Shown piece after piece: positions 1,972-62,945 of a stretch of DNA of 64,000 nt. Below the pieces are notes generated by a model. The model had not been told where the DNA came from, ran no database searches, and worked only from the letters and a program-made list of their open reading frames with translations. How positions within the stretch are numbered: the first letter of the stretch is position 1; each line of letters starts with the position of its first letter. This DNA is from Octopus vulgaris (lineage: Eukaryota): NCBI GenBank assembly GCA_951406725.2, contig OX597827.1, positions 65,844,001 to 65,908,000 on the forward strand, written 5' to 3'. The position numbers and the translations under genes are program-made.

Positions 1972-2012
<41 letters not shown>

Positions 2013-2187
2013 TAAGAAAGTTTGTTTGGTAAAGCACGTGGGTGAATATATAAGAAAATAGTAAAGTGTGAAAAAACGACAGAAGGCTTAAATGTTAAAA
2101 GATATATATATTTGTGTCAAAATGTCTGGAGAATATTGGAAAAATTTTTTTTCCTTTCCTTAAAATGACATAATTTTTAAATTTTTA

Positions 2188-2227
2188 AAGAAATTACCGG
2201 TTTCGCGTGTAGCTTTTCAAATTTCTT
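2188..2227 (-). ncRNA. Minimal type-I hammerhead ribozyme, U3-A8 core variant (PLE 3' repeat)
   Basis: Minus strand: aagaaat-TTGAAAA-gc tacac gc-GAAA-ccgg-TA-atttctt, giving a 7-bp stem I, 2-bp stem II and palindromic stem III ACCGGT. Confidence 0.72.
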
Positions 2228-2362
2228 GTGACGTTATGTTTATATTGCATGGATTTATCGTTGTTTTTATTTCCAGGAGATTTCTAAATAAGGGGAGGTA
2301 GTGAGTGATTTTTCCGGTGTAGGGGAGATAATCGCTTAAAAAATTTTTTTCCCATTTCCTTA

Positions 2363-2738
2363 TTAATTTCTCTGTGTCAGTATGTTCGGATGGTTGAGTC
2401 TGGGTTTGTACTTTTCAATGAAGAATGTTTCCTTGTTCAGTCTCATTTGTGTTGATGATCCGAAAGCACATTGGTAAAATGGGAAGATTAAAAATTGTGG
2501 CAGTAGTTGCTTTGCGCATTTCTCAATGTGCTCACTAAAAGGTATCATTCTATATTCTGGGAATGCAATCTGTTGTCGATGCAGTGTGCATCTGCGCCTG
2601 AGTGATAGTCCCGTGGAACCCACGTAGTCTTGGTGGCAGCCCGAGCATTTAATAACATAAATTATGTTTTCAGAGGCACAAGTAAAGTTAGATTTGATCT
2701 TAAATTTCTGTCCTTCTTTAAAGAAGAATTCTGATCCT
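2363..2738 (-). pseudogene. PLE GIY-YIG endonuclease fragment (left arm)
   Basis: Translation FTCASENIIYVIKCSGCHQDYVGST..LRRRCTLH..RLNKETFFI..PRLN matches the GIY-YIG motif order (IY-YVG, R, H, E, N). The N-terminus of the listed ORF 2363..2830 is antisense read-through across the palindrome centre. Confidence 0.88.
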
Positions 2739-2739
2739 G

Positions 2740-3131
2740 GTCCTAACCTATTGGAAGGATCAGAATTCTTCTTTAAAGAAGGACAGAAATTTAAGATCAA
2801 ATCTAACTTTACTTGTGCCTCTGAAAACATAATTTATGTTATTAAATGCTCGGGCTGCCACCAAGACTACGTGGGTTCCACGGGACTATCACTCAGGCGC
2901 AGATGCACACTGCATCGACAACAGATTGCATTCCCAGAATATAGAATGATACCTTTTAGTGAGCACATTGAGAAATGCGCAAAGCAACTACTGCCACAAT
3001 TTTTAATCTTCCCATTTTACCAATGTGCTTTCGGATCATCAACACAAATGAGACTGAACAAGGAAACATTCTTCATTGAAAAGTACAAACCCAGACTCAA
3101 CCATCCGAACATACTGACACAGAGAAATTAA
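2740..3131 (+). pseudogene. PLE GIY-YIG endonuclease fragment (right arm)
   Basis: Same peptide as the left arm and as 22922..23374, 5'-truncated at PNLLEGSEF. Confidence 0.88.
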
Positions 3132-3264
3132 CAAGGAAATGGGAAAAAATTTTTTAAGCGATTATCTCCCTACACCGGAAAAATCACTCACTACCTCCCC
3201 TTATTTAGAAATCTCCTGGAAATAAAAACAACGATAAATCCATGCAATATAAACATAACGTCAC

Positions 3265-3304
3265 AAGAAATTTGAAAAGCTACACGCGAAACCGGTAATT
3301 TCTT
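3265..3304 (+). ncRNA. Minimal type-I hammerhead ribozyme, U3-A8 core variant (PLE 3' repeat)
   Basis: aagaaat-TTGAAAA-gc tacac gc-GAAA-ccgg-TA-atttctt; identical to the other three copies. Confidence 0.72.
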
Positions 3305-3468
3305 TAAAAATTTAAAAATTATGTCATTTTAAGGAAAGGAAAAAAAATTTTTCCAATATTCTCCAGACATTTTGACACAAATATATATATCTTTTAACAT
3401 TTAAGCCTTCTGTCGTTTTTTCACACTTTACTATTTTCTTATATATATATATATATATACATATATAT

Positions 3469-20724: not shown

Positions 20725-21439
20725 TTGGGTTGCTAACAAAGTTCCCGCCGTTTTTATTAAATTTTAAAGGACTAATAAATAATAACAACTAATTATTCAA
20801 CTTATTCCCATCGTTCAACATTACCTCGTTGATAAAAGTAACACGATTTCGACTCGAAAAAGTGACCAAACCAAGCTCTCAATTCTGCATCAGTATTGAA
20901 CGAATCTCCACGCATAGCATTTGAAAGAGATCGAAAGAGGTGAAAATACGTTGGTGCCAAATCAGGAAAGTGCGGCGGGTGTAGCAGCACTTCACAGCCA
21001 TGTGATTGAATAGATTCTATGGTCATATTGGTGATATGAGGGCGGGCATTGTCGTGCAGCAGAAGAACTCCATGCTGCTGATGAGGTATTTTTTTCTTGA
21101 ATAGCCGTGTTGAATTGTTCCATCTGTTGAACATAGAGTTCCACATTGACCGTTTGGTTCCGTTCAAGCAATTCGTAATGGATAATCCCTTCTCAGTCCC
21201 ACCATACGCACAACATCGTTTTACGCGGGTGAAAATCTTGTCTCACGCCCGGTGTTGCTTGTAAACCAAGGCTAAGTCATTCCTTACGCTGCTTCATATT
21301 GAGGCACAGGGACCATTTTCCGTCGCTATTCCAAAATGATTCAAAAATAGATATCTCGTAAAAAAATAGATTCTAAAATTTAAAAACGCAGTAAATTCCA
21401 AAATTTTAAGAAACGGCGGGAATTTAGTTGCCAAACCAA
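20725..21439 (-). mobile_element. Internally deleted mariner element with TIRs and TA target duplication
   Basis: 29-bp imperfect TIRs at 20725-20753 and 21411-21439, with TA on both sides. ORF 20802..21167 has LLLHDNARPH and HPPHFPDLAPTYFHLFRSL (mariner HDNARPH / YSPDLAP.D motifs). Confidence 0.88.
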
Positions 21440-22573: not shown

Positions 22574-22613
<40 letters not shown>

Positions 22614-22746
22614 AAAATAGTAAAGTGTGAAAAAACGACAGAAGGCTTAAATGTTAAAAGATATATATATTTGTGTCAAAATGTCTGGAGAATATTGGAA
22701 AAATTTTTTTTCCTTTCCTTAAAATGACATAATTTTTAAATTTTTA

Positions 22747-22786
22747 AAGAAATTACCGGTTTCGCGTGTAGCTTTTCAAATTTCTT
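22747..22786 (-). ncRNA. Minimal type-I hammerhead ribozyme, U3-A8 core variant (PLE 3' repeat)
   Basis: Identical motif to 3265-3304, on the sense strand of the element. Confidence 0.72.
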
Positions 22787-22921
22787 GTGACGTTATGTTT
22801 ATATTGCATGGATTTATCGTTGTTTTTATTTCCAGGAGATTTCTAAATAAGGGGAGGTAGTGAGTGATTTTTCCGGTGTAGGGGAGATAATCGCTTAAAA
22901 ATTTTTTTTCCCATTTCCTTA

Positions 22922-24528
22922 TTAATTTCTCTGTGTCAGTATGTTCGGATGGTTGAGTCTGGGTTTGTACTTTTCAATGAAGAATGTTTCCTTGTTCAGT
23001 CTCATTTGTGTTGATGATCCGAAAGCACATTGGTAAAATGGGAAGATTAAAAATTGTGGCAGTAGTTGCTTTGCGCATTTCTCAATGTGCTCACTAAAAG
23101 GTATCATTCTATATTCTGGGAATGCAATCTGTTGTCGATGCAGTGTGCATCTGCGCCTGAGTGATAGTCCCGTGGAACCCACGTAGTCTTGGTGGCAGCC
23201 CGAGCATTTAATAACATAAATTATGTTTTCAGAGGCACAAGTAAAGTTAGATTTGATCTTAAATTTCTGTCCTTCTTTAAAGAAGAATTCTGATCCTTCC
23301 AATAGGTTAGGACATGTTGCACAGTTCGATCTACCACATTTTTTTACTTTTGCATCCGTAATTTTAGAAGACAATTTTGCCTTTGTGAGAATCTTTTTAA
23401 GTGATTTAGGCTGTTTGTAGCTTTTAATGATTTGGTGTATGTTTAGAATTTCCCTTAATTTTGGGTTTTTATGAAGTATTGGTAAATTCTGGGTGATGAT
23501 GGTGAAGGCTTCTTTGTTTCTGGGGTTGTATGTAGATATGTAAGGTAGTATTTTCGGGGAAGGTGTGTTGTTGTGTTGAACTTTTCTTAAAGTTTCTATG
23601 TTGATTTCTGTTGCACGTCTGATCCCATCCTCTATGAGTTGAGCTGGGTAATGTCTGTCAATTAGGGTGTTTTTTGAGTTCTTGCAGTCTAAAGTTCCTG
23701 GTATTTTGTTCTGACACTATTGTGCATATCCTTCTTGCAAGGTTGAAGGGTATGTTTGTTTTAGTGTGTCTTGGGTGGCATGAATTAAAAAGAAGGTATT
23801 GTTTGGCGTCTGTGGCTTTGTAAAAAATGTCTGTTTCTATTTTAAGGTTAATTTTTTTAATTAGTATATCCAAGAACGGAGCTCCTTTTGGTTGTATTCC
23901 ATTGTGAACTGTATATTTGGGTTTATGCTGTTCAATAGGTTTTTAAATTTTAGGAGTTTATCTATGTTTTCATTCCAGAGAATGAAACAATCGTCTAGGA
24001 ATCGTTTCCAATTCTCTTTTATGTATTGAGAGAGGGAGTTTCCAAAGATTGATAGAGATTCCTGGTAAATGATTATTTCCATGTATCCCATTGTTAAGTT
24101 CGCAATGACTGGTGCTGCCCTTGTACCCATAGCAATTCCGGATTTTTGACGGTAAAATGTATTGTCAAACATGAAGTGGTTATTGTGTAGGATGAATTCA
24201 ATTGATTTAGTAATGAATTCCTTACTGATCCTTTTTGGTATTTCTTCCGGAAATTGGTCTAACCAGAATTGTATTGCCTCCAGTCCATAATTATGAGGTA
24301 TACTGGTATACAAGTTGACTACATCAAATGAAACCAGGATTGTTTCTTCCTTGGTTTTTTTTGAAGGTGGTTTAACATATCTAAGTCATCTCTGATATGG
24401 CTATCGATATGTTTAAGGAAGGGTTTCAAGAGGATGTCCATAAGTAGACTTAGTCTGTGTGTTTCACAGGTTGGGCCAGCTACAATGGGTCGTAGTTTTA
24501 GGTCCCCCGGATTAGGTGTGTGTATGTA
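22922..24528 (-). pseudogene. PLE reverse transcriptase + GIY-YIG endonuclease ORF, 5'-truncated, three single-base frameshifts
   Basis: Motifs in order: LKLRPIVAG, LVSFDVVNLYTSIP, YRQKSGIAMGTRAAPVIANL, WKRFLDDCF, IQFTME, (LPF)LDI, DIFYKATD..QYL.FNSCHP, then GIY-YIG. Shifts at ~24363, ~23879 and ~23672. Confidence 0.93.
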
Positions 24529-24909
24529 TTGGAAGGATCAGAATTCTTCTTTAAAGAAGGACAGAAATTTAAGATCAAATCTAACTTTACTTGTGCCTCT
24601 GAAAACATAATTTATGTTATTAAATGCTCGGGCTGCCACCAAGACTACGTGGGTTCCACGGGACTATCACTCAGGCGCAGATGCACACTGCATCGACAAC
24701 AGATTGCATTCCCAGAATATAGAATGATACCTTTTAGTGAGCACATTGAGAAATGCGCAAAGCAACTACTGCCACAATTTTTAATCTTCCCATTTTACCA
24801 ATGTGCTTTCGGATCATCAACACAAATGAGACTGAACAAGGAAACATTCTTCATTGAAAAGTACAAACCCAGACTCAACCATCCGAACATACTGACACAG
24901 AGAAATTAA
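24527..24909 (+). pseudogene. GIY-YIG fragment in the inverted pseudo-LTR
   Basis: LEGSEFFFKEG...NHPNILTQRN identical to the minus-strand copy. Confidence 0.88.
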
Positions 24910-25044
24910 TAAGGAAATGGGAAAAAAATTTTTTAAGCGATTATCTCCCCTACACCGGAAAAATCACTCACTACCTCCCCTTATTTAGAAATCTCCTGGA
25001 AATAAAAACAACGATAAATCCATGCAATATAAACATAACGTCAC

Positions 25045-25084
25045 AAGAAATTTGAAAAGCTACACGCGAAACCGGTAATTTCTT
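25045..25084 (+). ncRNA. Minimal type-I hammerhead ribozyme, U3-A8 core variant (PLE 3' repeat)
   Basis: Stem I 25045-51/25078-84, core TTGAAAA 25052-58, GAAA 25068-71, predicted cleavage after A25077. Confidence 0.72.
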
Positions 25085-25280
25085 TAAAAATTTAAAAATT
25101 ATGTCATTTTAAGGAAAGGAAAAAAATTTTTCCAATATTCTCCAGACATTTTGACACAAATATATATATCTTTTAACATTTAAGCCTTCTGTCGTTTTTT
25201 CACACTTTACTATTTTCTTATATATTCACCCACGTGCTTTACCAAACAAACTTTCTTATCTATATATATATATATATATA

Positions 25281-25804
25281 AATTTAACAATTAAGGAATG
25301 GCCTTAATAGGCCATTCGTCCACTAGAAAGAGCAGCCATGACTCAAACCGCTAAGTAGTAGTAATTCAGAAATTAGGTGAAAATTTAAAAAGTTTACCCT
25401 AATTCATCTTTAGACGATGCATCGTTTCAGTGTTTTTAATGGTAAACTAGCTTAATTAAATTAACTTAAGTCAATCTACCATAGGTTACACTTCATCAGT
25501 AAAGAAACCAGGAGAGACGGATATACACGAGGCGTCTGTATCAATGCCCTCGGAATATCTGCCTTAAAATTTTCAAGACCATCGTATTCGCGCCAACTTA
25601 TCAGCAGTAAATATAAACTACCGATTCAATCTCAGAATTAGTCAGAAAATCATCAATTAATCAATTTAGGGTAGCAAAAAATTCAATAGAAATTTATCGC
25701 TACCAGCGTTCTAGTGGGAAAGAGAAAATAGTCAGAGACTAAATATATAAATTTATCGCTGGTAGCGATAAATTTCTATTGAATTTTTTGCTACCCTAAA
25801 TTGA

Positions 25805-25810
<6 letters not shown>
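25281..25810 (-). mobile_element. Retrozyme-like monomer (family B), diverged homologue of the 485-bp array unit, with a short terminal inversion
   Basis: Colinear with 54628-55110 (ttaacaattaaggaa.ggcc.taataggccattc..ccactagaaa; taatggtaaacta; acacgaggc; taaaattttcaa; agtggga). 54-bp inverted repeat 25655-25708/25757-25810. (TA)n on both sides. Confidence 0.85.
25407..25505 (-). ncRNA. Type-I hammerhead ribozyme with extended stem II (family B)
   Basis: Minus strand: tcttta-CTGATGA-agtgt[long hairpin]acact-GAAA-cgatgcatcg-TC-taaaga; canonical core and GUC triplet. Confidence 0.92.
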
Positions 25811-26257: not shown

Positions 26258-27192
26258 TGGCTTCAACGTTTGCTACAATGCTAAATCGATGACATCAATA
26301 CCAGTGTTCAACTGGTATCGACCACGAAGGAAGGATGAAAGGTAAAATCGATCTCGGCAGCGTTATTTGATTTCAGAAATCGCACACAGACGAAATACCG
26401 CGAATTATATTGGCGGACACTTTTTACGATTCTTATTTCTTTATAGCCCACAAGGAGCTAAACATAGCGGGGTCGAAAAAGGACAGACAAAGTGATCAAG
26501 TCGATTACATCGACGCCAGTCCGTAATTAGTACTTATTTAATCGACACCGAAGGATGAAAGGCTAAGTCGACCTCGGCAGAATTTGAACTCAAAACGTAG
26601 CGGCAGACGAAATACCTATTTCTTTACTACCCACAAGAGGCTAAACACAGAGATAACAACCAAGGACAGACAAATGGATTAAGTCGACTATATCGACCGC
26701 ATTGCGTAACTGGTACTTATTTAACCGACTCCGAAAGGATGAAAGCAAAGTCGACCTCGGCGGCGGCAGACGAAATACCTATTTCTTTTCTACCCACAAG
26801 GGGCTAAACACAGAGAGGACAAACAAGGACAGACAAACGGATTAAGTCGATTATATCGACCCCAGTGCGTAACTGGTACTTATTTAATCGACCCGGAAAG
26901 CATGAAAGGCTATGTCGACCTCGGCGGAATTTGAACTCAGAACGTAACGGCAGACGAAATACCTATTTCTTTATTACCCACAAGGGGCTAAACACAGAGC
27001 GGACAAACAAGGACAGGCATAGGTATTAAGTCGATTACATCGACCCCAGTGCGTAACTGGTACTTAATTCATCGATCCCGAAATGATGAAAGGCAAAGTC
27101 GACCTCGGCGGAATTTGAACTCACAACGTAACGCAGACGAAATACCGCTAAGTATTTCGCCCGGCGTGCTAATGTTTCTGTCAGTTCGCCGC
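26258..27192 (-). mobile_element. SINE family B with ~5 internal tandem units of ~140-190 bp
   Basis: Repeated gatgaaaggcaaagtcgacctcggcggaatttgaactcagaacgta.cggcagacgaaatacctatttcttta.tacccacaagggg; tRNA-like head at the right end. Confidence 0.85.
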
Positions 27193-28544: not shown

Positions 28545-28970
28545 TGAAATACCTAATTCTTTACTACCCACAACGGGCTAAACACAGAGTGGGACAAGCA
28601 AGGACAAACAAAGGGATTAAGCCGATTACATTGACCCTAGTGCATAACTGGTACTTATTTTATCGACCGCGAAAAGATGAAAGGCAAAGTCAACCTCGGC
28701 GGAATTTGAACTCAGAACGTAGCGGCAGACGAAATTCCTATTTCTTTACTACCCACAAGGAGCCAAACACAGAGGGGACAAACAAGGAGAGATAAACAGA
28801 TTAAGTCGATTATATCGACTTCAGTGCGTAACTGGTTCTTAATTCATCGACCCCGAAAGGATGAAAAGCAAAGTCGACCTCGGCGAAATTTGAACTGAGA
28901 ACATAGCGGCAGACGAAATAACGCTAAGCATTTCGCTCGGCGTGCTAAGGTTTCTGCCAGCTCGCCGGCT
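28545..28970 (-). mobile_element. SINE family B with two internal units
   Basis: Same unit as 26258-27192; head ..cggcgtgctaaggtttctgccagctcgcc. Confidence 0.8.
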
Positions 28971-40946: not shown

Positions 40947-41139
40947 CATGTATATAGCTGTTTTAGACTTTAGCACAAGACTAGTGCTTTGAGGTGTAAT
41001 TGTTTGGTTCATTTCCACGGTCCCTGCACTTAAATAATATTCATTTTATCGGCCTCGCAACAAGGAAGGCCAGTTTGAAACTCACCAATATTGGAGAAAT
41101 ACCGATACACATAACAAAAATAACAACAACTAAATAATA

Positions 41140-41365
41140 CTCCTTTCTACTATAGGCACAAGGCCTGACATTTCGTGGCGGGAACAAATTTTTTTACGTT
41201 GGCCCCAGTGCGTAACTGGGACTTATTTAATCGACCCCGAAAAGATGAAAAGCAAAGCCGACTCGGTGGAACTTGAATTCGAAGGTAGAAAGAACCTCAA
41301 GACAGATAATATACCACAAAGCATTTCATCCGGTGTGCAAACGATTCTGCCAATTCACCGTTTTA
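41140..41365 (-). mobile_element. SINE family B, degenerate
   Basis: ccccagtgcgtaactgggacttatttaatcgaccccgaaaagatgaaaagcaaag. Confidence 0.65.
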
Positions 41366-41439
41366 AAAATAATGATTATAATGACGAAGAGAATATATCT
41401 GACATGCTAAACAGACCTGCACGTTGCTACAACACTTGC

Positions 41440-42845
41440 AGTAAAGCAATCAACCATCTCTTGTATATAGATTATCTAAAACTGTGTGCTTCAAATGACG
41501 AACAACCGGAAACATTACTACAGAAACTGCATGGATTTACCAAAGGAATAAACATGAAATTCGTCGCAGAAAAATGTGCCAAAGCAATTTTGAAAACAGG
41601 AAAACTAGTTAAGAATAACAATATCACACTAGATAAAGCAAATGAAATTAGAGAATTAGACCAAAGCCAGACATATAAGTACTTAGGAATCGATGAACTA
41701 GATATGGTACAACACAAATGAAAGAGAAGATAAGAAAGGAATATTACAGAAGAGTTAGATTAATGCTGAAAACAGAGCTCAAGGCTAAAACAGAATAATA
41801 TGTAACAATACTCTAGCCGTTCCAGTAATAAGTTACAGCTACAATATACTTAATTGAACTCTAAATGAACTAAAGAAACTAAACAGGAAAACAAGAAAAC
41901 CAATGACAGAGTTTAGAATGCACCACCCAAAGTCTGACATAAAAGTTATTTGTACAAAGAACTGAAGGTGGTATAGGCCTTATACATCCCAGGAACCTAT
42001 TATAAAAATAACCTCCATAGAATTACAGAAATATCTATTTCAGAAAAAAATGAAACTGATACAAACAGCCACAAAACATGAGCAAACAAAACAGCTTTCT
42101 GTCTTTAATGAAGCTGAAAAATACAAAAAATTGAGTCATAGTACATAACAACTCTGAAAATAAAGAGGAAACAGCAAAATATGTAAGACAACTGAAATTC
42201 AAACTAAAACTGGAACAGCAAAGTATCATGATAATATGATGGCAAGAAAACCCTTACATGACAAATATTGCGATAAGCTAAACTTAAAATAAATAAACAA
42301 AATAATATCCCAACAATGGTTGAGAAGCACAGGACTCAAAGCAGAGACTGAAGGGTTTTTAATTACTACATAAGGTATTAGCACACACACATACACTCGC
42401 ATATAGAAACAAATGATGAAGAAAATACAAGTAACAGTAGAATATGTGGGGATATGGAAGAAAGGATATTATCTCTGACTGTCCAGTCCTGGCTGAGAAA
42501 GGGTATATCCAAAAACATGACAGAGTTGGGACCTATATACACTGGAAGCTATGAAAACACTCTGAAATGACAACAGAGAAAAGAATATAAAGGCACACTC
42601 CAGAAAAGGTTTTAGAAAATTACAAAACAACCGTACTCTCAAATATGCCAATGCAAACAGATTGAGAAATCATGGCTAATAGACCGGATATAGTTGTCAG
42701 ATATGAGCTAGAAAAAGTTGCCTTCTAATCGATGCATCATCACCAACAGATTGCCATGCATCTCTGAGAGAAACGTAGAAACCTTCAAAATACAAAGATT
42801 TGGAATAAGAGGTAACTCAAATGTGGAGCCTAAAACGAGAAACAA
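41440..42845 (+). pseudogene. Decayed R4/Dong-type (restriction-like endonuclease) non-LTR retrotransposon, RT C-terminus to RLE
   Basis: INHLLYIDYLKL (YxDD region), MKF..EKCAK, TYKYLGI, KEKIRKEYYRRVRL, a zinc-knuckle remnant (RICG..CPVLA..KHDRVG) at ~42435-42530, ANRPDIVV at ~42675 and KYKDL; many stops and shifts. Confidence 0.8.
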
Positions 42846-54595: not shown

Positions 54596-54632
<37 letters not shown>

Positions 54633-54750
54633 CAATTAAGGAACGGCCATAATAGGCCATTCACCCACTAGAAATAACAGCCAAAGCTTCTACCGCAAAT
54701 AAAGATCAATTCCGTAAACAGGAGAAAATTAAAAAAACATTTACCCTGTA

Positions 54751-54857
54751 ATTTCTTGTACGGTATACCGTTTCATCTGCTGTTTAATGGTAAACTAACC
54801 TGATTAAATTAAATCAAGCCAATCTTCCATAAGCCCTCAGATTCTTCAGCAAGAAAT
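54751..54857 (-). ncRNA. Type-I hammerhead ribozyme, array left arm copy 1
   Basis: atttcttg-CTGAAGA-atctg[long hairpin]cagat-GAAA-cggtataccg-TA-caagaaat on the minus strand. Confidence 0.92.
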
Positions 54858-55233
54858 AGCTCAAGTCGGAACAGATATTTACACGAGGCATACCCAATCC
54901 TGCCAAGGCAATATCTGACCTAAAATTTTCAAATCGTCGCACTCGCGCCAAATTTATCGGCAGCAAATAAATCGTCGATTCCATTACGGAATTAACCAAA
55001 AAATTCATAATTAATCAATATAGGGTGGCAAGGAAAATTTTGTAGAATTTTTTTGCCACCAGCGGCCAGTGGGAAAAAATTAAATAGTCATAGACCATTT
55101 TAAGTTCAACATTAACAATTAAGGAACGGCCATAATAGGCCATTCACCCACTAGAAATAACAGCCAAAGCTTCTACCGCAAATAAAGATCAATTCCGTAA
55201 ACAGGAGAAAATTAAAAAAACATTTACCCTGTA

Positions 55234-55340
55234 ATTTCTTGTACGGTATACCGTTTCATCTGCTGTTTAATGGTAAACTAACCTGATTAAATTAAATCAA
55301 GCCAATCTTCCATAAGCCCTCAGATTCTTCAGCAAGAAAT
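55234..55340 (-). ncRNA. Type-I hammerhead ribozyme, array left arm copy 2
   Basis: Same motif as 54751-54857. Confidence 0.92.
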
Positions 55341-55717
55341 AGCTCAAGTCGGAACAGATATTTACACGAGGCATACCCAATCCTGCCAAGGCAATATCTG
55401 ACCTAAAATTTTCAAATCGTCGCACTCGCGCCAAATTTATCGGCAGCAAATAAATCGTCGATTCCATTACGGAATTAACCAAAAAATTCATAATTAATCA
55501 ATATAGGGTGGCAAGGAAAATTTTGTAGAATTTTTTTGCCACCAGCGGCCAGTGGGAAAAAATTAAATAGTCATAGACCATTTTTAAGTTCAACATTAAC
55601 AATTAAGGAACGGCCATAATAGGCCATTCACCCACTAGAAATAACAGCCAAAGCTTCTACCGCAAATAAAGATCAATTCCGTAAACAGGAGAAAATTAAA
55701 AAAACATTTACCCTGTA

Positions 55718-55824
55718 ATTTCTTGTACGGTATACCGTTTCATCTGCTGTTTAATGGTAAACTAACCTGATTAAATTAAATCAAGCCAATCTTCCATAAG
55801 CCCTCAGATTCTTCAGCAAGAAAT
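55718..55824 (-). ncRNA. Type-I hammerhead ribozyme, array left arm copy 3
   Basis: Same motif. A fourth copy (56215-56301) is cut by the inversion and lacks CTGAAGA. Confidence 0.92.
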
Positions 55825-56307
55825 AGCTCAAGTCGGAACAGATATTTACACGAGGCATACCCAATCCTGCCAAGGCAATATCTGACCTAAAATTTGACCT
55901 AAAATTTTCAAATCGTCGCACTCGCGCCAAATTTATCGGCAGCAAATAAATCGTCGATTCCATTACGGAATTAACCAAAAAATTCATAATTAATCAATAT
56001 AGGGTGGCAAGGAAAATTTTGTAGAATTTTTTTGCCACTAGCGGCCCAGTGGGAAAAAATTAAATAGTCATAGACCATTTTTAAGTTCAACATTAACAAT
56101 TAAGGAACGGCCTTAATAGGCCATTCACCCACTAGAAATAACAGCCAAAGCTTCTACCGCAAATAAAGATCAATTCCGTAAACAGGAGAAAATTAAAAAA
56201 ACATTTACCCTGTAATTTCTTGTACGGTATACCGTTTCATCTGCTGTTTAATGGTAAACTAACCTGATTAAATTAAATCAAGCCAATCTTCCATAAGCCC
56301 TTGAGCT

Positions 56308-56414
56308 ATTTCTTGCTGAAGAATCTGAGGGCTTATGGAAGATTGGCTTGATTTAATTTAATCAGGTTAGTTTACCATTAAACAGCAGATGAAACGGTAT
56401 ACCGTACAAGAAAT
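56308..56414 (+). ncRNA. Type-I hammerhead ribozyme, array right arm copy 1
   Basis: Stem I 56308-15/56407-14, CTGAAGA 56316-22, stem II atctg/cagat, GAAA 56391-94, stem III cggt/accg, predicted cleavage after A56406. Confidence 0.93.
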
Positions 56415-56791
56415 TACAGGGTAAATGTTTTTTTAATTTTCTCCTGTTTACGGAATTGATCTTTATTTGCGGTAGAAGCTTTGGCTGTTATTTCTAGTGG
56501 GTGAATGGCCTATTATGGCCGTTCCTTAATTGTTAATGTTGAACTTAAAAATGGTCTATGACTATTTAATTTTTCCCACTGGGCCGCTGGTGGCAAAAAA
56601 ATTCTACAAAATTTTCCTTGCCACCCTATATTGATTAATTATGAATTTTTTGGTTAATTCCGTAATGGAATCGACGATTTATTTGCTGCCGATAAATTTG
56701 GCGCGAGTGCGACGATTTGAAAATTTTAGGTCAGATATTGCCTTGGCAGGATTGGGTATGCCTCGTGTAAATATCTGTTCCGACTTGAGCT

Positions 56792-56898
56792 ATTTCTTGC
56801 TGAAGAATCTGAGGGCTTATGGAAGATTGGCTTGATTTAATTTAATCAGGTTAGTTTACCATTAAACAGCAGATGAAACGGTATACCGTACAAGAAAT
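56792..56898 (+). ncRNA. Type-I hammerhead ribozyme, array right arm copy 2
   Basis: Same motif; predicted cleavage after 56890. Confidence 0.93.
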
Positions 56899-57274
56899 TA
56901 CAGGGTAAATGTTTTTTTAATTTTCTCCTGTTTACGGAATTGATCTTTATTTGCGGTAGAAGCTTTGGCTGTTATTTCTAGTGGGTGAATGGCCTATTAT
57001 GGCCGTTCCTTAATTGTTAATGTTGAACTTAAAATGGTCTATGACTATTTAATTTTTTCCCACTGGGCCGCTGGTGGCAAAAAAATTCTACAAAATTTTC
57101 CTTGCCACCCTATATTGATTAATTATGAATTTTTGGTTAATTCCGTAATGGAATCGACGATTTATTTGCTGCCGATAAATTTGGCGCGAGTGCGACGATT
57201 TGAAAATTTTAGGTCAGATATTGCCTTGGCAGGATTGGGTATGCCTCGTGTAAATATCTGTTCCGACTTGAGCT

Positions 57275-57381
57275 ATTTCTTGCTGAAGAATCTGAGGGCT
57301 TATGGAAGATTGGCTTGATTTAATTTAATCAGGTTAGTTTACCATTAAACAGCAGATGAAACGGTATACCGTACAAGAAAT
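57275..57381 (+). ncRNA. Type-I hammerhead ribozyme, array right arm copy 3
   Basis: Same motif; predicted cleavage after 57373. Confidence 0.93.
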
Positions 57382-57757
57382 TACAGGGTAAATGTTTTTT
57401 AATTTTCTCCTGTTTACGGAATTGATCTTTATTTGCGGTAGAAGCTTTGGCTGTTATTTCTAGTGGGTGAATGGCCTATTATGGCCGTTCCTTAATTGTT
57501 AATGTTGAACTTAAAAATGGTCTATGACTATTTAATTTTTTCCCACTGGGCCGCTGGTGGCAAAAAAATTCTACAAAATTTTCCTGCCACCCTATATTGA
57601 TTAATTATGAATTTTTTGGTTAATTCCGTAATGGAATCGACGATTTATTTGCTGCCGATAAATTTGGCGCGAGTGCGACGATTTGAAAATTTTAGGTCAG
57701 ATATTGCCTTGGCAGGATTGGGTATGCCTCGTGTAAATATCTGTTCCGACTTGAGCT

Positions 57758-57864
57758 ATTTCTTGCTGAAGAATCTGAGGGCTTATGGAAGATTGGCTTG
57801 ATTTAATTTAATCAGGTTAGTTTACCAGTAAACAGCAGATGAAACGGTATACCGTACAAGAAAT
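57758..57864 (+). ncRNA. Type-I hammerhead ribozyme, array right arm copy 4
   Basis: Same motif with one substitution in the stem II extension; predicted cleavage after 57856. Confidence 0.93.
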
Positions 57865-58242
57865 TACAGGGTAAATGTTTTTTTAATTTTCTCCTGTTTA
57901 CGGAATTGATCTTTATTTGCGGTAGAAGCTTTGGCTGTTATTTCTAGTGGGTGAATGGCCTATTATGGCCGTTCCTTAATTGTTAATGTTGAACTTAAAA
58001 ATGGTCTATGACTATTTAATTTTTTCCCACTGGGCCGCTGGTGGCAAAAAAATTCTACAAAATTTTCCTTGCCACCCTATATTGATTAATTATGAATTTT
58101 TTGGTTAATTCCGTAATGGAATCGACGATTTATTTGCTGCCGATAAATTTGGCGCGAGTGCGACGATTTGAAAATTTTAGGTCAGATATTGCCTTGGCAG
58201 GATTGGGTATGCCTCGTGTAAATATCTGTTCCGACTTGAGCT

Positions 58243-58349
58243 ATTTCTTGCTGAAGAATCTGAGGGCTTATGGAAGATTGGCTTGATTTAATTTAATCAG
58301 GTTAGTTTACCATTAAACAGCAGATGAAACGGTATACCGTACAAGAAAT
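58243..58349 (+). ncRNA. Type-I hammerhead ribozyme, array right arm copy 5
   Basis: Same motif; predicted cleavage after 58341. Confidence 0.93.
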
Positions 58350-58727
58350 TACAGGGTAAATGTTTTTTTAATTTTCTCCTGTTTACGGAATTGATCTTTA
58401 TTTGCGGTAGAAGCTTTGGCTGTTATTTCTAGTGGGTGAATGGCCTATTATGGCCGTTCCTTAATTGTTAATGTTGAACTTAAAAATGGTCTATGACTAT
58501 TTAATTTTTTCCCACTGGGCCGCTGGTGGCAAAAAAATTCTACAAAATTTTCCTTGCCACCCTATATTGATTAATTATGAATTTTTTGGTTAATTCCGTA
58601 ATGGAATCGACGATTTATTTGCTGCCGATAAATTTGGCGCGAGTGCGACGATTTGAAAATTTTAGGTCAGATATTGCCTTGGCAGGATTGGGTATGCCTC
58701 GTGTAAATATCTGTTCCGACTTGAGCT

Positions 58728-58834
58728 ATTTCTTGCTGAAGAATCTGAGGGCTTATGGAAGATTGGCTTGATTTAATTTAATCAGGTTAGTTTACCATTA
58801 AACAGCAGATGAAACGGTATACCGTACAAGAAAT
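58728..58834 (+). ncRNA. Type-I hammerhead ribozyme, array right arm copy 6
   Basis: Same motif; predicted cleavage after 58826. Confidence 0.93.
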
Positions 58835-59052
58835 TACAGGGTAAATGTTTTTTTAATTTTCTCCTGTTTACGGAATTGATCTTTATTTGCGGTAGAAGCT
58901 TTGGCTGTTATTTCTAGTGGGTGAATGGCCTATTATGGCCGTTCCTTAATTGTTAATGTTGAACTTAAAAATGGTCTATGACTATTTAATTTTTTCCCAC
59001 TGGGCCGCTGGTGGCAAAAAAATTCTACAAAATTTTCCTTGCCACCCTATAT

Positions 59053-59090
<38 letters not shown>

Positions 59091-62329: not shown

Positions 62330-62945
62330 ATACATATCTCATTTGTCCTCGCACACAATCCAAAGAACCACAATATTCTATAACCAGCCGAACGCCTTCT
62401 ACCAATTCTACACAAGTCCCTATGTCTCCGACAAACAATCAAGGAACAACAAAGAGTCAACAGCCGAATGCAACCACCAAGACTTAAGAAACTTCTGACC
62501 AAAGCAAGATTCACATCAGAGGAAGAAATTATGCAAGTTACCAAAAGTGAAACCGCCCAATGAGGGTCATGTGATTTAATAGAACTGGGAGCAGTCAAAA
62601 AATTCAAGAATGGAAAAGAATTAAAGGTGAATGCAAATATGAACTGCAAAAGCAAAAACCTGATATATTGTATCACATGCACACGATGCAACGAACAAAA
62701 GCGAAATTAACCAACCGTGTACATGTGCATAGACATCAAATAACACATCCATACTTAGATGCCTACCATGTAGCGATCATTTGCACACATTTGCACACAT
62801 TTGCACAAGGAAAATTTACAATTTTCTTTCTTCATAACATAAATGAAGGCAAAAGAAGAATATTTCATGAGATTTCTGAGTCAGAAGCTAAATCGGAAAC
62901 AGTCACCGACAATTTTACTGAAAACCACTTTCACTATATATAATA
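62330..62945 (+). pseudogene. Old, decayed Penelope-like 3' fragment (linker + GIY-YIG) from a different lineage
   Basis: Remnants VLAHNPKN..LLPIL, QPPRLKKLLTKARF, CDLIELG..KFKNGKELKVNANMNCKSKNLIYCITCTRCNE and LTNRVHVHRHQITHP align in order with the young PLE (STYNPRN..LPIL, QPKSLKKILTKAKL, CPNLLEG..FTCASENIIYVIKCSGC, LRRRCTLHRQQIAFP). Confidence 0.8.

What the first reader, a model, noticed from the sequence alone, without database searches (positions are those of the whole stretch)
54628..59056. Tandem array in which every full ~485-bp unit carries a complete hammerhead ribozyme: candidate retrozyme / circular-RNA system
Seen in sequence: ~9 near-identical units, each with atttcttg-CUGAAGA-aucug...cagau-GAAA-cgguauaccg-UA-caagaaau, i.e. 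the full catalytic core, an 8-bp stem I, a palindromic stem III and a GUA site. Nine copies are intact. Stem II is extended by a 19-bp hairpin with 5 G-U pairs that only form on the HHR strand, which points to selection on RNA. Established: tandem type-I HHR repeats in animals (non-LTR retrozymes) self-cleave into monomers that circularise and are thought to be mobilised by Penelope-like elements. Inference: transcription through either arm would release 483-485-nt monomers or circles, larger than the ~170-400 nt I recall for described animal retrozymes, and the array would be a rolling-circle cDNA product. I know of no description of this family in cephalopods but cannot check that here.
Basis: partly seen in the sequence, partly recalled or inferred. 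Interest (0 to 1): 0.95.

Follow-up and report, generated by a model that had tools for sequence, protein, structure and literature searches.

The report
Hammerhead retrozyme copied by Penelope machinery
The array is one copy of a young, genome-wide family of self-cutting RNA repeats (a known kind of genomic parasite), and its insertion scars match those of Penelope-like jumping genes in the same genome, which gives direct genomic support for a mobilisation route that had mostly been proposed rather than shown.

Summary
Observation confirmed: nine intact type-I hammerheads in 483-485-bp units (0 of 5000 shuffles), with compensatory changes among relatives. It is a non-LTR retrozyme, a known class; 485 bp lies within the published 51-972 bp range. 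The family is young and dispersed (1360 candidates, 40 scored). In 38 insertions, 64 of 64 arm ends abut (TA)n, 62 of 64 fall at two fixed sites 131 and 236 nt after the cut, 26 of 26 two-arm insertions are head-to-head, and 24 of 26 use each site once. Penelope-like elements with intact frames in this genome leave the same signature (12 of 13), which matches PLE two-site internal RT initiation (PMC11167929). Units in both arms share one haplotype. 5' ends pile up just after the cleavage site (19 of 64). The genome holds about 15,000 hammerhead motifs. Cleavage, circles and the exact PLE partner are not shown. The scan saw Penelope-type ends on a ribozyme-free tandem element in another genome, but not this family.

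The parts
54628..56301 (-). Left arm, 3.46 units, hammerhead strand on -; its 3' end is at fixed end E1 (~131 nt after the cut site)
56300..59056 (+). Right arm, 5.70 units; its 3' end is at fixed end E2 (~229-236 nt after the cut site)
56300..56301 (.). Head-to-head junction of the two 5'-truncated arms, 2-nt overlap
54600..54629 (.). Left (TA)n target flank
59055..59089 (.). Right (TA)n target flank
58957..59056 (+). [quoted passage not shown]
   Evidence: by analogy to the PLE tail of PMC11167929
56308..56414 (+). Type-I hammerhead 1 (cut after 56406)
56792..56898 (+). Type-I hammerhead 2 (cut after 56890)
57275..57381 (+). Type-I hammerhead 3 (cut after 57373)
57758..57864 (+). Type-I hammerhead 4 (cut after 57856); one substitution in the helix-II extension
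58243..58349 (+). Type-I hammerhead 5 (cut after 58341)
58728..58834 (+). Type-I hammerhead 6 (cut after 58826)
55718..55824 (-). Type-I hammerhead 7 (cut after 55726)
55234..55340 (-). Type-I hammerhead 8 (cut after 55242)
54751..54857 (-). Type-I hammerhead 9 (cut after 54759)
25284..25810 (-). Insertion of the diverged sister family B (470-bp unit; 349 identities against the 484-bp unit): one unit on - with an intact hammerhead (cut after 25413) plus a 54-bp inverted arm, in (TA)n, same E1/E2 ends
22612..25260 (.). Truncated Penelope-like element PLE-1 (RT + GIY-YIG fragments), two arms head-to-head in (TA)n, minimal U3-A8 hammerheads cut after 22754 (-) and 25077 (+); belongs to a candidate mobilising family
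2011..3439 (.). Second truncated PLE-1 insertion, head-to-head, hammerheads cut after 2195 (-) and 3297 (+)

Best explanation
A young non-autonomous retrozyme family that is copied in trans by an active (TA)n-targeting Penelope-like element (PLE). Steps: (1) arrays are transcribed on the hammerhead strand (inferred; weak hint only). (2) The hammerheads cut multimers into ~484-nt monomers that are ligated into circles (inferred from the class; the 5'-end pile-up is an indirect footprint of the cut site). (3) A PLE RT-endonuclease nicks both strands of a (TA)n tract and primes reverse transcription at two fixed internal sites of the RNA, 131 and 236 nt after the cut, one site per strand. The fixed ends, the one-of-each rule and the target are shown; the enzyme's role is inferred from the identical PLE signature and from PMC11167929. 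(4) Each RT runs for 0.1-14 units on one haplotype, most likely round one circle. Homogeneity is shown, the circle is inferred. (5) The two cDNAs, often stopped near the cut/ligation site, are joined head-to-head, usually with a few bases of overlap or gap (junctions shown, repair inferred). Arrays are thus born as multimers rather than grown in place. PLE-type mobilisation ~0.9; circular template ~0.6.
For: Dispersed and near-identical: 266 matches from 40 of 1360 candidates, on many chromosomes. Ends: 64 of 64 in (TA)n; 62 of 64 at E1 or E2; 26 of 26 two-arm insertions head-to-head; 24 of 26 E1+E2. Family B: 15 of 17 two-arm insertions E1+E2. PLE-1 loci: 13 of 15 two-arm head-to-head, 12 of 13 E1+E2, tail 40 nt. 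PLE-1 and PLE-3 have intact 811- and 784-aa frames at many places and hammerheads 142/183 and 57/96 nt upstream of their ends. PMC11167929: a PLE protein nicks and extends both strands and starts RT at two internal RNA sites that bound the tail. Variants: 72 variant-by-insertion cases fixed in all copies; 46 of 50 segregating cases are singletons; none shared between insertions; no arm discordance; insertion-private variants fixed across both arms in L049 (2) and L055 (1). Long arrays with zero substitutions exist (L031 9.4 units, L035 7.4). 5' ends within 40 nt after the cut: 19 of 64 (P 9e-7) vs 3 in the 41 nt before; 12 of 33 for arms of 2 or more units; family B 13 of 45. Compensatory changes in helices I, II and III.
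Against: No cleavage, circle or strand-specific transcript was observed. L060 (16.8 units) is mosaic at two sites (9 of 16 and 11 of 16 copies, both arms), which one uniform circle does not explain. The 5'-end peak fits a partly cut linear multimer equally well. PMC11167929 found unprocessed RNA to be the main in vitro substrate and hammerhead cleavage dispensable for PAc. Only 1 of 9 Xenopus retrozyme dimers cleaved in vitro. No sequence shared with the ends of PLE-1 (51-182 of 200 shuffles scored as well) or PLE-3, so the partner is not identified, and the tail (105 nt) is longer than the 30-40 nt of PLEs. 12 of 38 insertions showed one arm only at a 40-bp threshold; some have a tiny second arm in the flank. 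The sample is the 40 best-scoring candidates, biased to young copies.
Confidence: 0.68

Rival explanations
1. Same PLE-driven two-site priming, but the template is a long linear multimeric transcript of a source array, cut by only some of its hammerheads; circles are absent or a side product.
For: 5' ends pile up just after the cut site even after several full units (12 of 33), as expected for an RNA whose 5' end is a cleavage product. The L060 mosaic. The active fold is predicted to be rare (helix I pairing ~2%, 3.2 kcal/mol above the minimum), so uncut multimers are plausible. PAc uses unprocessed RNA in vitro.
Against: Copying multimers can only keep or shorten arrays and should pass unit-specific variants from source to daughter; 0 of 50 segregating variants are shared between insertions, while private variants are fixed in all units of both arms. 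That needs a one-unit bottleneck followed by amplification at some step. Source arrays outside the 40 sampled could still be homogeneous.
Confidence: 0.22
2. Short PLE-type insertions (about one unit per arm) that later grew into satellites in place by unequal crossover, as proposed for vertebrate retrozymes in bioRxiv 10.64898/2026.07.22.740005.
For: Published model. Local homogenisation can also fix variants. The L060 mosaic could be gene conversion.
Against: The longest arrays include copies without any substitution (L031, L035) and length does not rise with divergence (rho 0.11, P 0.5). The older family B is mostly 1-2 units per arm (loci cut at 1.5-kb flanks). Both inverted arms share private variants.
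Confidence: 0.05
3. The units are only the hammerhead-bearing ends (pLTRs) of an autonomous PLE that was not sampled, as several similar findings in other genomes turned out to be.
For: Same ends and order (hammerhead, then two RT starts) as PLE pLTRs. 24 of 57 Xenopus families match repeats that are nearly all PLE ends. Only some of the genome's PLE families were examined.
Against: Units run head-to-tail for up to 14 copies with no coding sequence between. tblastn of the PLE-1 protein on 60 hammerhead-pattern loci gave one hit, a chance neighbour. PLE hits in the 39 array loci lie outside the arrays. No homology with PLE-1, -2 or -3 loci.
Confidence: 0.04
4. An inert satellite in which the hammerhead motif is chance or vestigial.
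For: Rfam gives no hammerhead hit.
Against: 0 of 5000 shuffles; covarying helices; 11,599 vs 293 and 4,071 vs 332 genome-wide pattern matches against reversed controls; dispersed fixed-end insertions.
Confidence: 0.01

Closest known systems
Animal non-LTR retrozymes (Cervera and de la Pena 2020, PMC7229834; coral, mussel, axolotl)
   Same: Non-coding low-GC tandem repeats, a type-I hammerhead with palindromic helix III in each unit, thousands of copies, coexisting with PLEs; proposed circle-templated, PLE-driven insertion.
   Different: Unit 484 bp vs ~170-400 there; helix II extended by a 68-nt insert; helix I is predicted to be sequestered in the circle whereas most metazoan circles are predicted to fold freely. 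The sections read describe no head-to-head arms, fixed ends or (TA)n targeting; the supplement could not be read. No expression data here.
Vertebrate non-LTR retrozymes as PLE pLTR derivatives (Li, Clavereau, Pollet 2026, bioRxiv 10.64898/2026.07.22.740005)
   Same: Tandem units with a hammerhead in each; size within 51-972 bp; PLEs present.
   Different: No similarity to the pLTRs of the PLE families examined; arrays look inserted as multimers rather than grown by unequal crossover; no mollusc among the 35 species sampled there.
Endonuclease-bearing Penelope-like elements (Craig et al. 2021, PMC8557442; PAc biochemistry, PMC11167929; hammerheads in pLTRs, PMC4209133)
   Same: Tandem and inverted 5'-truncated arms, a tail at one end, microsatellite/(TA)n bias, a hammerhead upstream of two internal RT starts.
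   Different: No ORF; tail 105 nt instead of 30-40; canonical C3-G8 core with long helix II rather than a minimal hammerhead; up to 14 units per arm.

Membership tests
Type-I hammerhead ribozyme | Conserved core and NUH site with helices I (open), II, III | tested here: met
   9 copies, 0 of 5000 shuffles
Type-I hammerhead ribozyme | Helices kept by compensatory change | tested here: met
   Two-pair change in helix II in 9 copies, G-C to A-U in helix I, palindromic helix III kept in families A, B, C; helix I of 5 bp or more, not required by the pattern, at 18 of 30 pattern loci, some of them overlapping
Type-I hammerhead ribozyme | Match to an Rfam hammerhead model | tested here: not met
   the 68-nt insert is the likely cause (inference)
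Type-I hammerhead ribozyme | Loop 1 - loop 2 tertiary contact | not tested
   Helix II lacks the short canonical loop; no 3D or biochemical test
Type-I hammerhead ribozyme | Self-cleavage | not testable with these tools
   Indirect only: 5' ends pile up after the cut site
Animal non-LTR retrozyme | Head-to-tail repeats of a few hundred bp with a type-I hammerhead in each unit | tested here: met
Animal non-LTR retrozyme | Non-coding, no LTR architecture | tested here: met
   Only two short stop-to-stop frames (109, 113 aa) overlap the array; no flanking LTRs or ORFs at the insertions; PBS/PPT not searched
Animal non-LTR retrozyme | Dispersed multi-locus family | tested here: met
   1360 candidates, 40 scored, many contigs
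Animal non-LTR retrozyme | Expressed as linear and circular monomers | not testable with these tools
   Only assembled contigs of runs guessed to be RNA
Animal non-LTR retrozyme | Coexisting autonomous PLEs | tested here: met
   PLE-1 and PLE-3 with intact frames
PLE pLTR derivative (Li et al. 2026) | Sequence similarity to the pLTR of a resident PLE | tested here: inconclusive
   None with PLE-1, PLE-2 or PLE-3 loci; other PLE families not examined
PLE-type insertion | Inverted 5'-truncated arm | tested here: met
   26 of 38 insertions two-arm, all head-to-head
PLE-type insertion | Two fixed 3' ends bounding a tail found at one end | tested here: met
   62 of 64 ends; 24 of 26 one of each; tail 105 nt, longer than the 30-40 nt reported
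PLE-type insertion | Microsatellite target bias | tested here: met
   64 of 64 ends at (TA)n
Autonomous PLE | RT and GIY-YIG ORF within the element | tested here: not met

The most novel reading that the evidence does not exclude
This genome hosts a large radiation (about 15,000 hammerheads, many families, units of 470-590 bp) of viroid-like circular RNA parasites with no pLTR ancestry among the active PLEs. They recruit the PLE RT by structural mimicry: two modules of hairpin plus short pyrimidine/AT motif that set the two RT starts. A PLE RT dimer copies one circle from both nicked strands at once, each RT rolling round it several times, which would explain the tandem-plus-inverted architecture of PLEs in general. 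The circle keeps its ribozyme off by an alternative hairpin, and transcripts of the inverted arrays are A-to-I edited.
Probability: 0.3. Interest if true: 0.8.

Novelty: new member of a known kind. Interest (0 to 1): 0.6.

Why it matters
How animal retrozymes move and how their arrays arise is open: one paper proposes PLE-driven copying of circles (PMC7229834), a 2026 preprint proposes pLTR fragments amplified in place. Here very young copies keep the full insertion scar, and it is the PLE two-site signature, on an RNA that shares no detectable sequence with the PLEs examined. With intact PLE frames in the same genome and a defined 484-nt RNA, the trans-mobilisation and rolling-circle models become testable in the published PAc-type assay. 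It also adds a large, apparently undescribed set of ribozymes: no retrozyme report for cephalopods turned up, and an octopus repeat annotation has 0 mentions of ribozyme, retrozyme or hammerhead in its main text (its supplements were not read).

Tried and rejected
Rfam: no hammerhead hit; nothing useful on the PLE-1 inter-ORF region. I first concluded that PLE-1 has no hammerhead (canonical core only); a relaxed scan corrected this. The PLE reference was cut wrongly (tail missing); redone, whose counts are used. The hammerhead beside a PLE ORF in L122 is a chance neighbour: 39 of 40 other matches start beyond it. No hammerhead found in five PLE-2 loci, whose far ends may lie outside the stretches. 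Two Pfam accessions were not in the genome-search library. RNA evidence: no RNA holder listed on record; 14 runs are only guessed to be RNA. Contigs of 4 runs cover the unit but cannot show strand, ends, circles or level; no joints, no start/stop pile-ups. The A>G cluster in two runs is kept as a hint only (no DNA of the same individual). The MAFFT alignment A1 misaligns the family-B core by 3 columns, so RNAalifold missed helices I and II; motif-anchored counts were used instead. Bacterial promoter and tRNA scans were uninformative. Target-site duplications cannot be read inside (TA)n. The supplement of PMC7229834 could not be read and bioRxiv supplements are closed; both may bear on whether a cephalopod family or inverted insertions were already listed.
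Full report
Observation. The stretch 54628-59056 is two tandem arms joined head-to-head: 3.46 units with the hammerhead strand on -, then 5.70 units on +, between (TA)n tracts. A descriptor found 9 complete type-I hammerheads there and a tenth, diverged one at 25413-25499; 0 of 5000 shuffled units gave a hit. The hammerhead strand is much more structured than its complement (z -7.7 vs -3.0). The helix-II hairpin has 18 bp with 5 G-U. Rfam does not detect the ribozyme. Among relatives the helices covary: a two-pair compensatory change in helix II in 9 copies, G-C to A-U in helix I, and a palindromic helix III of changing sequence.

A young dispersed family. The window lies at G000:C14:65844001-65908000 of a 2.8-Gb genome. 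One unit gave 1360 candidates, of which 40 were scored, yielding 266 matches; the 150 listed are 96-100% identical and lie on many contigs. The diverged family B gave 2194 candidates, 40 scored; its unit is 470 bp with 349 identities. Two hammerhead patterns gave 11,599 matches against 293 for the reversed control (55-85-nt helix II) and 4,071 against 332 (short helix II). The listings show several further tandem families with spacings of about 492, 545, 559, 568 and 593 bp. Some pattern matches will be decayed copies or belong to PLEs.

Insertion anatomy. I fetched 39 loci taken from the 150 listed rows and added the window. I dropped L058 (duplicate of L057), L069 (gap at its 5' end) and a second, diverged insertion in L060, leaving 38 insertions and 64 arms. 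Numbering from the base after the cut: 32 arms end at 126-136 (E1), 30 at 227-242 (E2), 2 elsewhere; 64 of 64 run into (TA)n; 26 insertions have two arms of 40 bp or more, all head-to-head; 24 of 26 have one E1 and one E2 end; either arm may be the longer (13 and 13); arms are 0.1-14.4 units. End positions are uncertain by a few bases because both sites are AT-rich. Family B: of 28 loci, 17 have two arms, 15 of them E1+E2. A short-helix family shows its own pair of ends near 197 and 290.

The same scar in PLEs. The window holds two truncated copies of a PLE (RT and GIY-YIG). This family, PLE-1, gave 22,107 candidates, 145 scored, many with an intact 811-aa frame. In 15 chosen loci, 13 have arms head-to-head and 12 of these have one end of each kind, 40 nt apart, nearly all in (TA)n. 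PLE-1 has the C-x4-C-x2-C linker that PMC8557442 gives for Neptune and Nematis (passages read); no tree was built. It carries a minimal hammerhead with a U3-A8 core, 142 and 183 nt upstream of its ends (0 of 5000 shuffles), a variant known from Schistosoma PLEs (PMC4209133, parts 1-2 of 4 read). A second family with intact 784-aa frames, PLE-3 (57% identical), has the same core and ends at 57 and 96 nt. PMC11167929 (parts 1-3 of 4 read) shows that a PLE protein nicks and extends both strands of AT-rich DNA and starts RT at two internal RNA sites that bound the genomic tail. The retrozyme ends are therefore best read as PLE RT start sites. The unit shares no detectable sequence with PLE-1 ends or with PLE-2 and PLE-3 loci, so the partner is not identified.

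Template. In 38 insertions (257 unit pieces; here L069 kept, and L058, L062 and the second L060 insertion dropped), 72 variant-by-insertion cases are fixed in all copies and 50 segregate, 46 of them in one copy only. None of the 50 recurs in another insertion and no variant separates the two arms. Private variants are fixed across both arms in L049 (two) and L055 (one); a fourth in L061 also occurs in the dropped L062. Long arrays with no substitution exist, and length does not track divergence. This points to one haplotype amplified at insertion, as rolling-circle RT on a monomer circle predicts. Against it: L060 is mosaic at two sites, and homogeneous source arrays outside my sample could give the same picture through linear multimers. 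5' ends fall within 40 nt after the cut in 19 of 64 arms (P 9e-7), against 3 in the 41 nt before it. The query began at the cut site, which could bias short arms, but the peak holds for arms of 2 or more units (12 of 33) and in family B, queried from another phase (13 of 45). This marks the cut site as a real stop in vivo, either an RNA 5' end or a pause at the ligation junction or ribozyme fold; it does not decide between circle and line. In the folded circle helix I is predicted to be mostly sequestered (about 2% paired; 3.2 kcal/mol to the active fold), a possible off-switch.

Expression. No run on record as RNA holds the stretch. Contigs of four runs guessed to be RNA, from four studies, cover it. 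Two show clustered A>G changes on the hammerhead strand (10 of 15 and 8 of 16 changed places); 182 of 185 genomic units carry none of the eight clustered changes and none carries more than two. This looks like A-to-I editing of fold-back transcripts, but without DNA of the same animals it is a hint only.

Comparison. The element meets every testable feature of animal non-LTR retrozymes (PMC7229834, parts 2-4 of 6 read; supplement unreadable). Its size is within the 51-972 bp of bioRxiv 10.64898/2026.07.22.740005 (parts 1-3 of 5 read). It works like a PLE at insertion but is not an autonomous PLE. No cephalopod retrozyme appeared in the search listings; PMC13282606 (part 1 of 3 and a term search) does not mention ribozymes. 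The library lacks most subscription papers. Earlier scan notes show no look-alike sequence; one notes Penelope-type ends on a ribozyme-free tandem element elsewhere, and three found similar units to be mere PLE ends, a rival tested above.

Verdict. Real, and a new member of a known class. The added value is the clear PLE insertion signature on a non-homologous ribozyme RNA, the evidence that arrays are born as single-haplotype multimers, and a ready test system. Interest 0.6.

Noticed in passing
window 25284-25810: One-unit insertion of retrozyme family B, directly beside a PLE-1 copy in a shared (TA)n tract, with the same two fixed ends as family A.
   Followed up: yes
window 22612-25260 and 2011-3439; L100-L114: PLE-1: very young Penelope-like family, ~4.0-kb tandem unit with two overlapping frames (495 and 811 aa stop to stop; the upstream one has no Pfam hit) and a U3-A8 hammerhead. 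PLE-3 also has two frames (446 and 784 aa). A two-frame layout differs from the single ORF given for canonical PLEs.
   Followed up: partly
L160:3497 (-), L069: A further PLE family with an A3-U8 hammerhead core, a third pairing at the 3-8 position.
   Followed up: partly
L131, L132, L129, L140, L165-L190: Otherwise dissimilar retrozyme families share a 13-nt motif about 45-55 nt upstream of E1, and both ends follow a hairpin and a short pyrimidine/AT motif (read by eye): candidate RT-recognition signal.
   Followed up: partly
L060:836-9167: 16.8-unit insertion mosaic at two sites in both arms; unexplained (two templates, gene conversion or assembly collapse).
   Followed up: partly
window 57220-57290 and 57321-57340: Clustered A>G (two runs) and T>C (mainly one run) changes in public contigs that are nearly absent from genomic copies: possible A-to-I editing on both strands.
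   Followed up: partly
L109:8474-8918: Head-to-head pair of hammerheads of yet another long-helix-II family next to a PLE-1 copy.
   Followed up: no
window 55883-55907: 12-bp tandem duplication in one unit of the left arm.
   Followed up: no
window 26434-27146 and 28546-28920: Short tandem clusters (periods 163-347 bp) of an abundant dispersed repeat; not examined.
   Followed up: no
window 62336-62698; 20802-21242 (-); 41134-41721 (+): Old PLE fragment (33% to PLE-1); a frame that looks like a mariner-type transposase remnant and one that looks like a LINE RT remnant (both by eye, recalled, not searched).
   Followed up: no
L057 and L058 (G000:C30): Identical insertion at two places 360 kb apart in opposite orientation: segmental duplication or assembly duplicate.
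   Followed up: no
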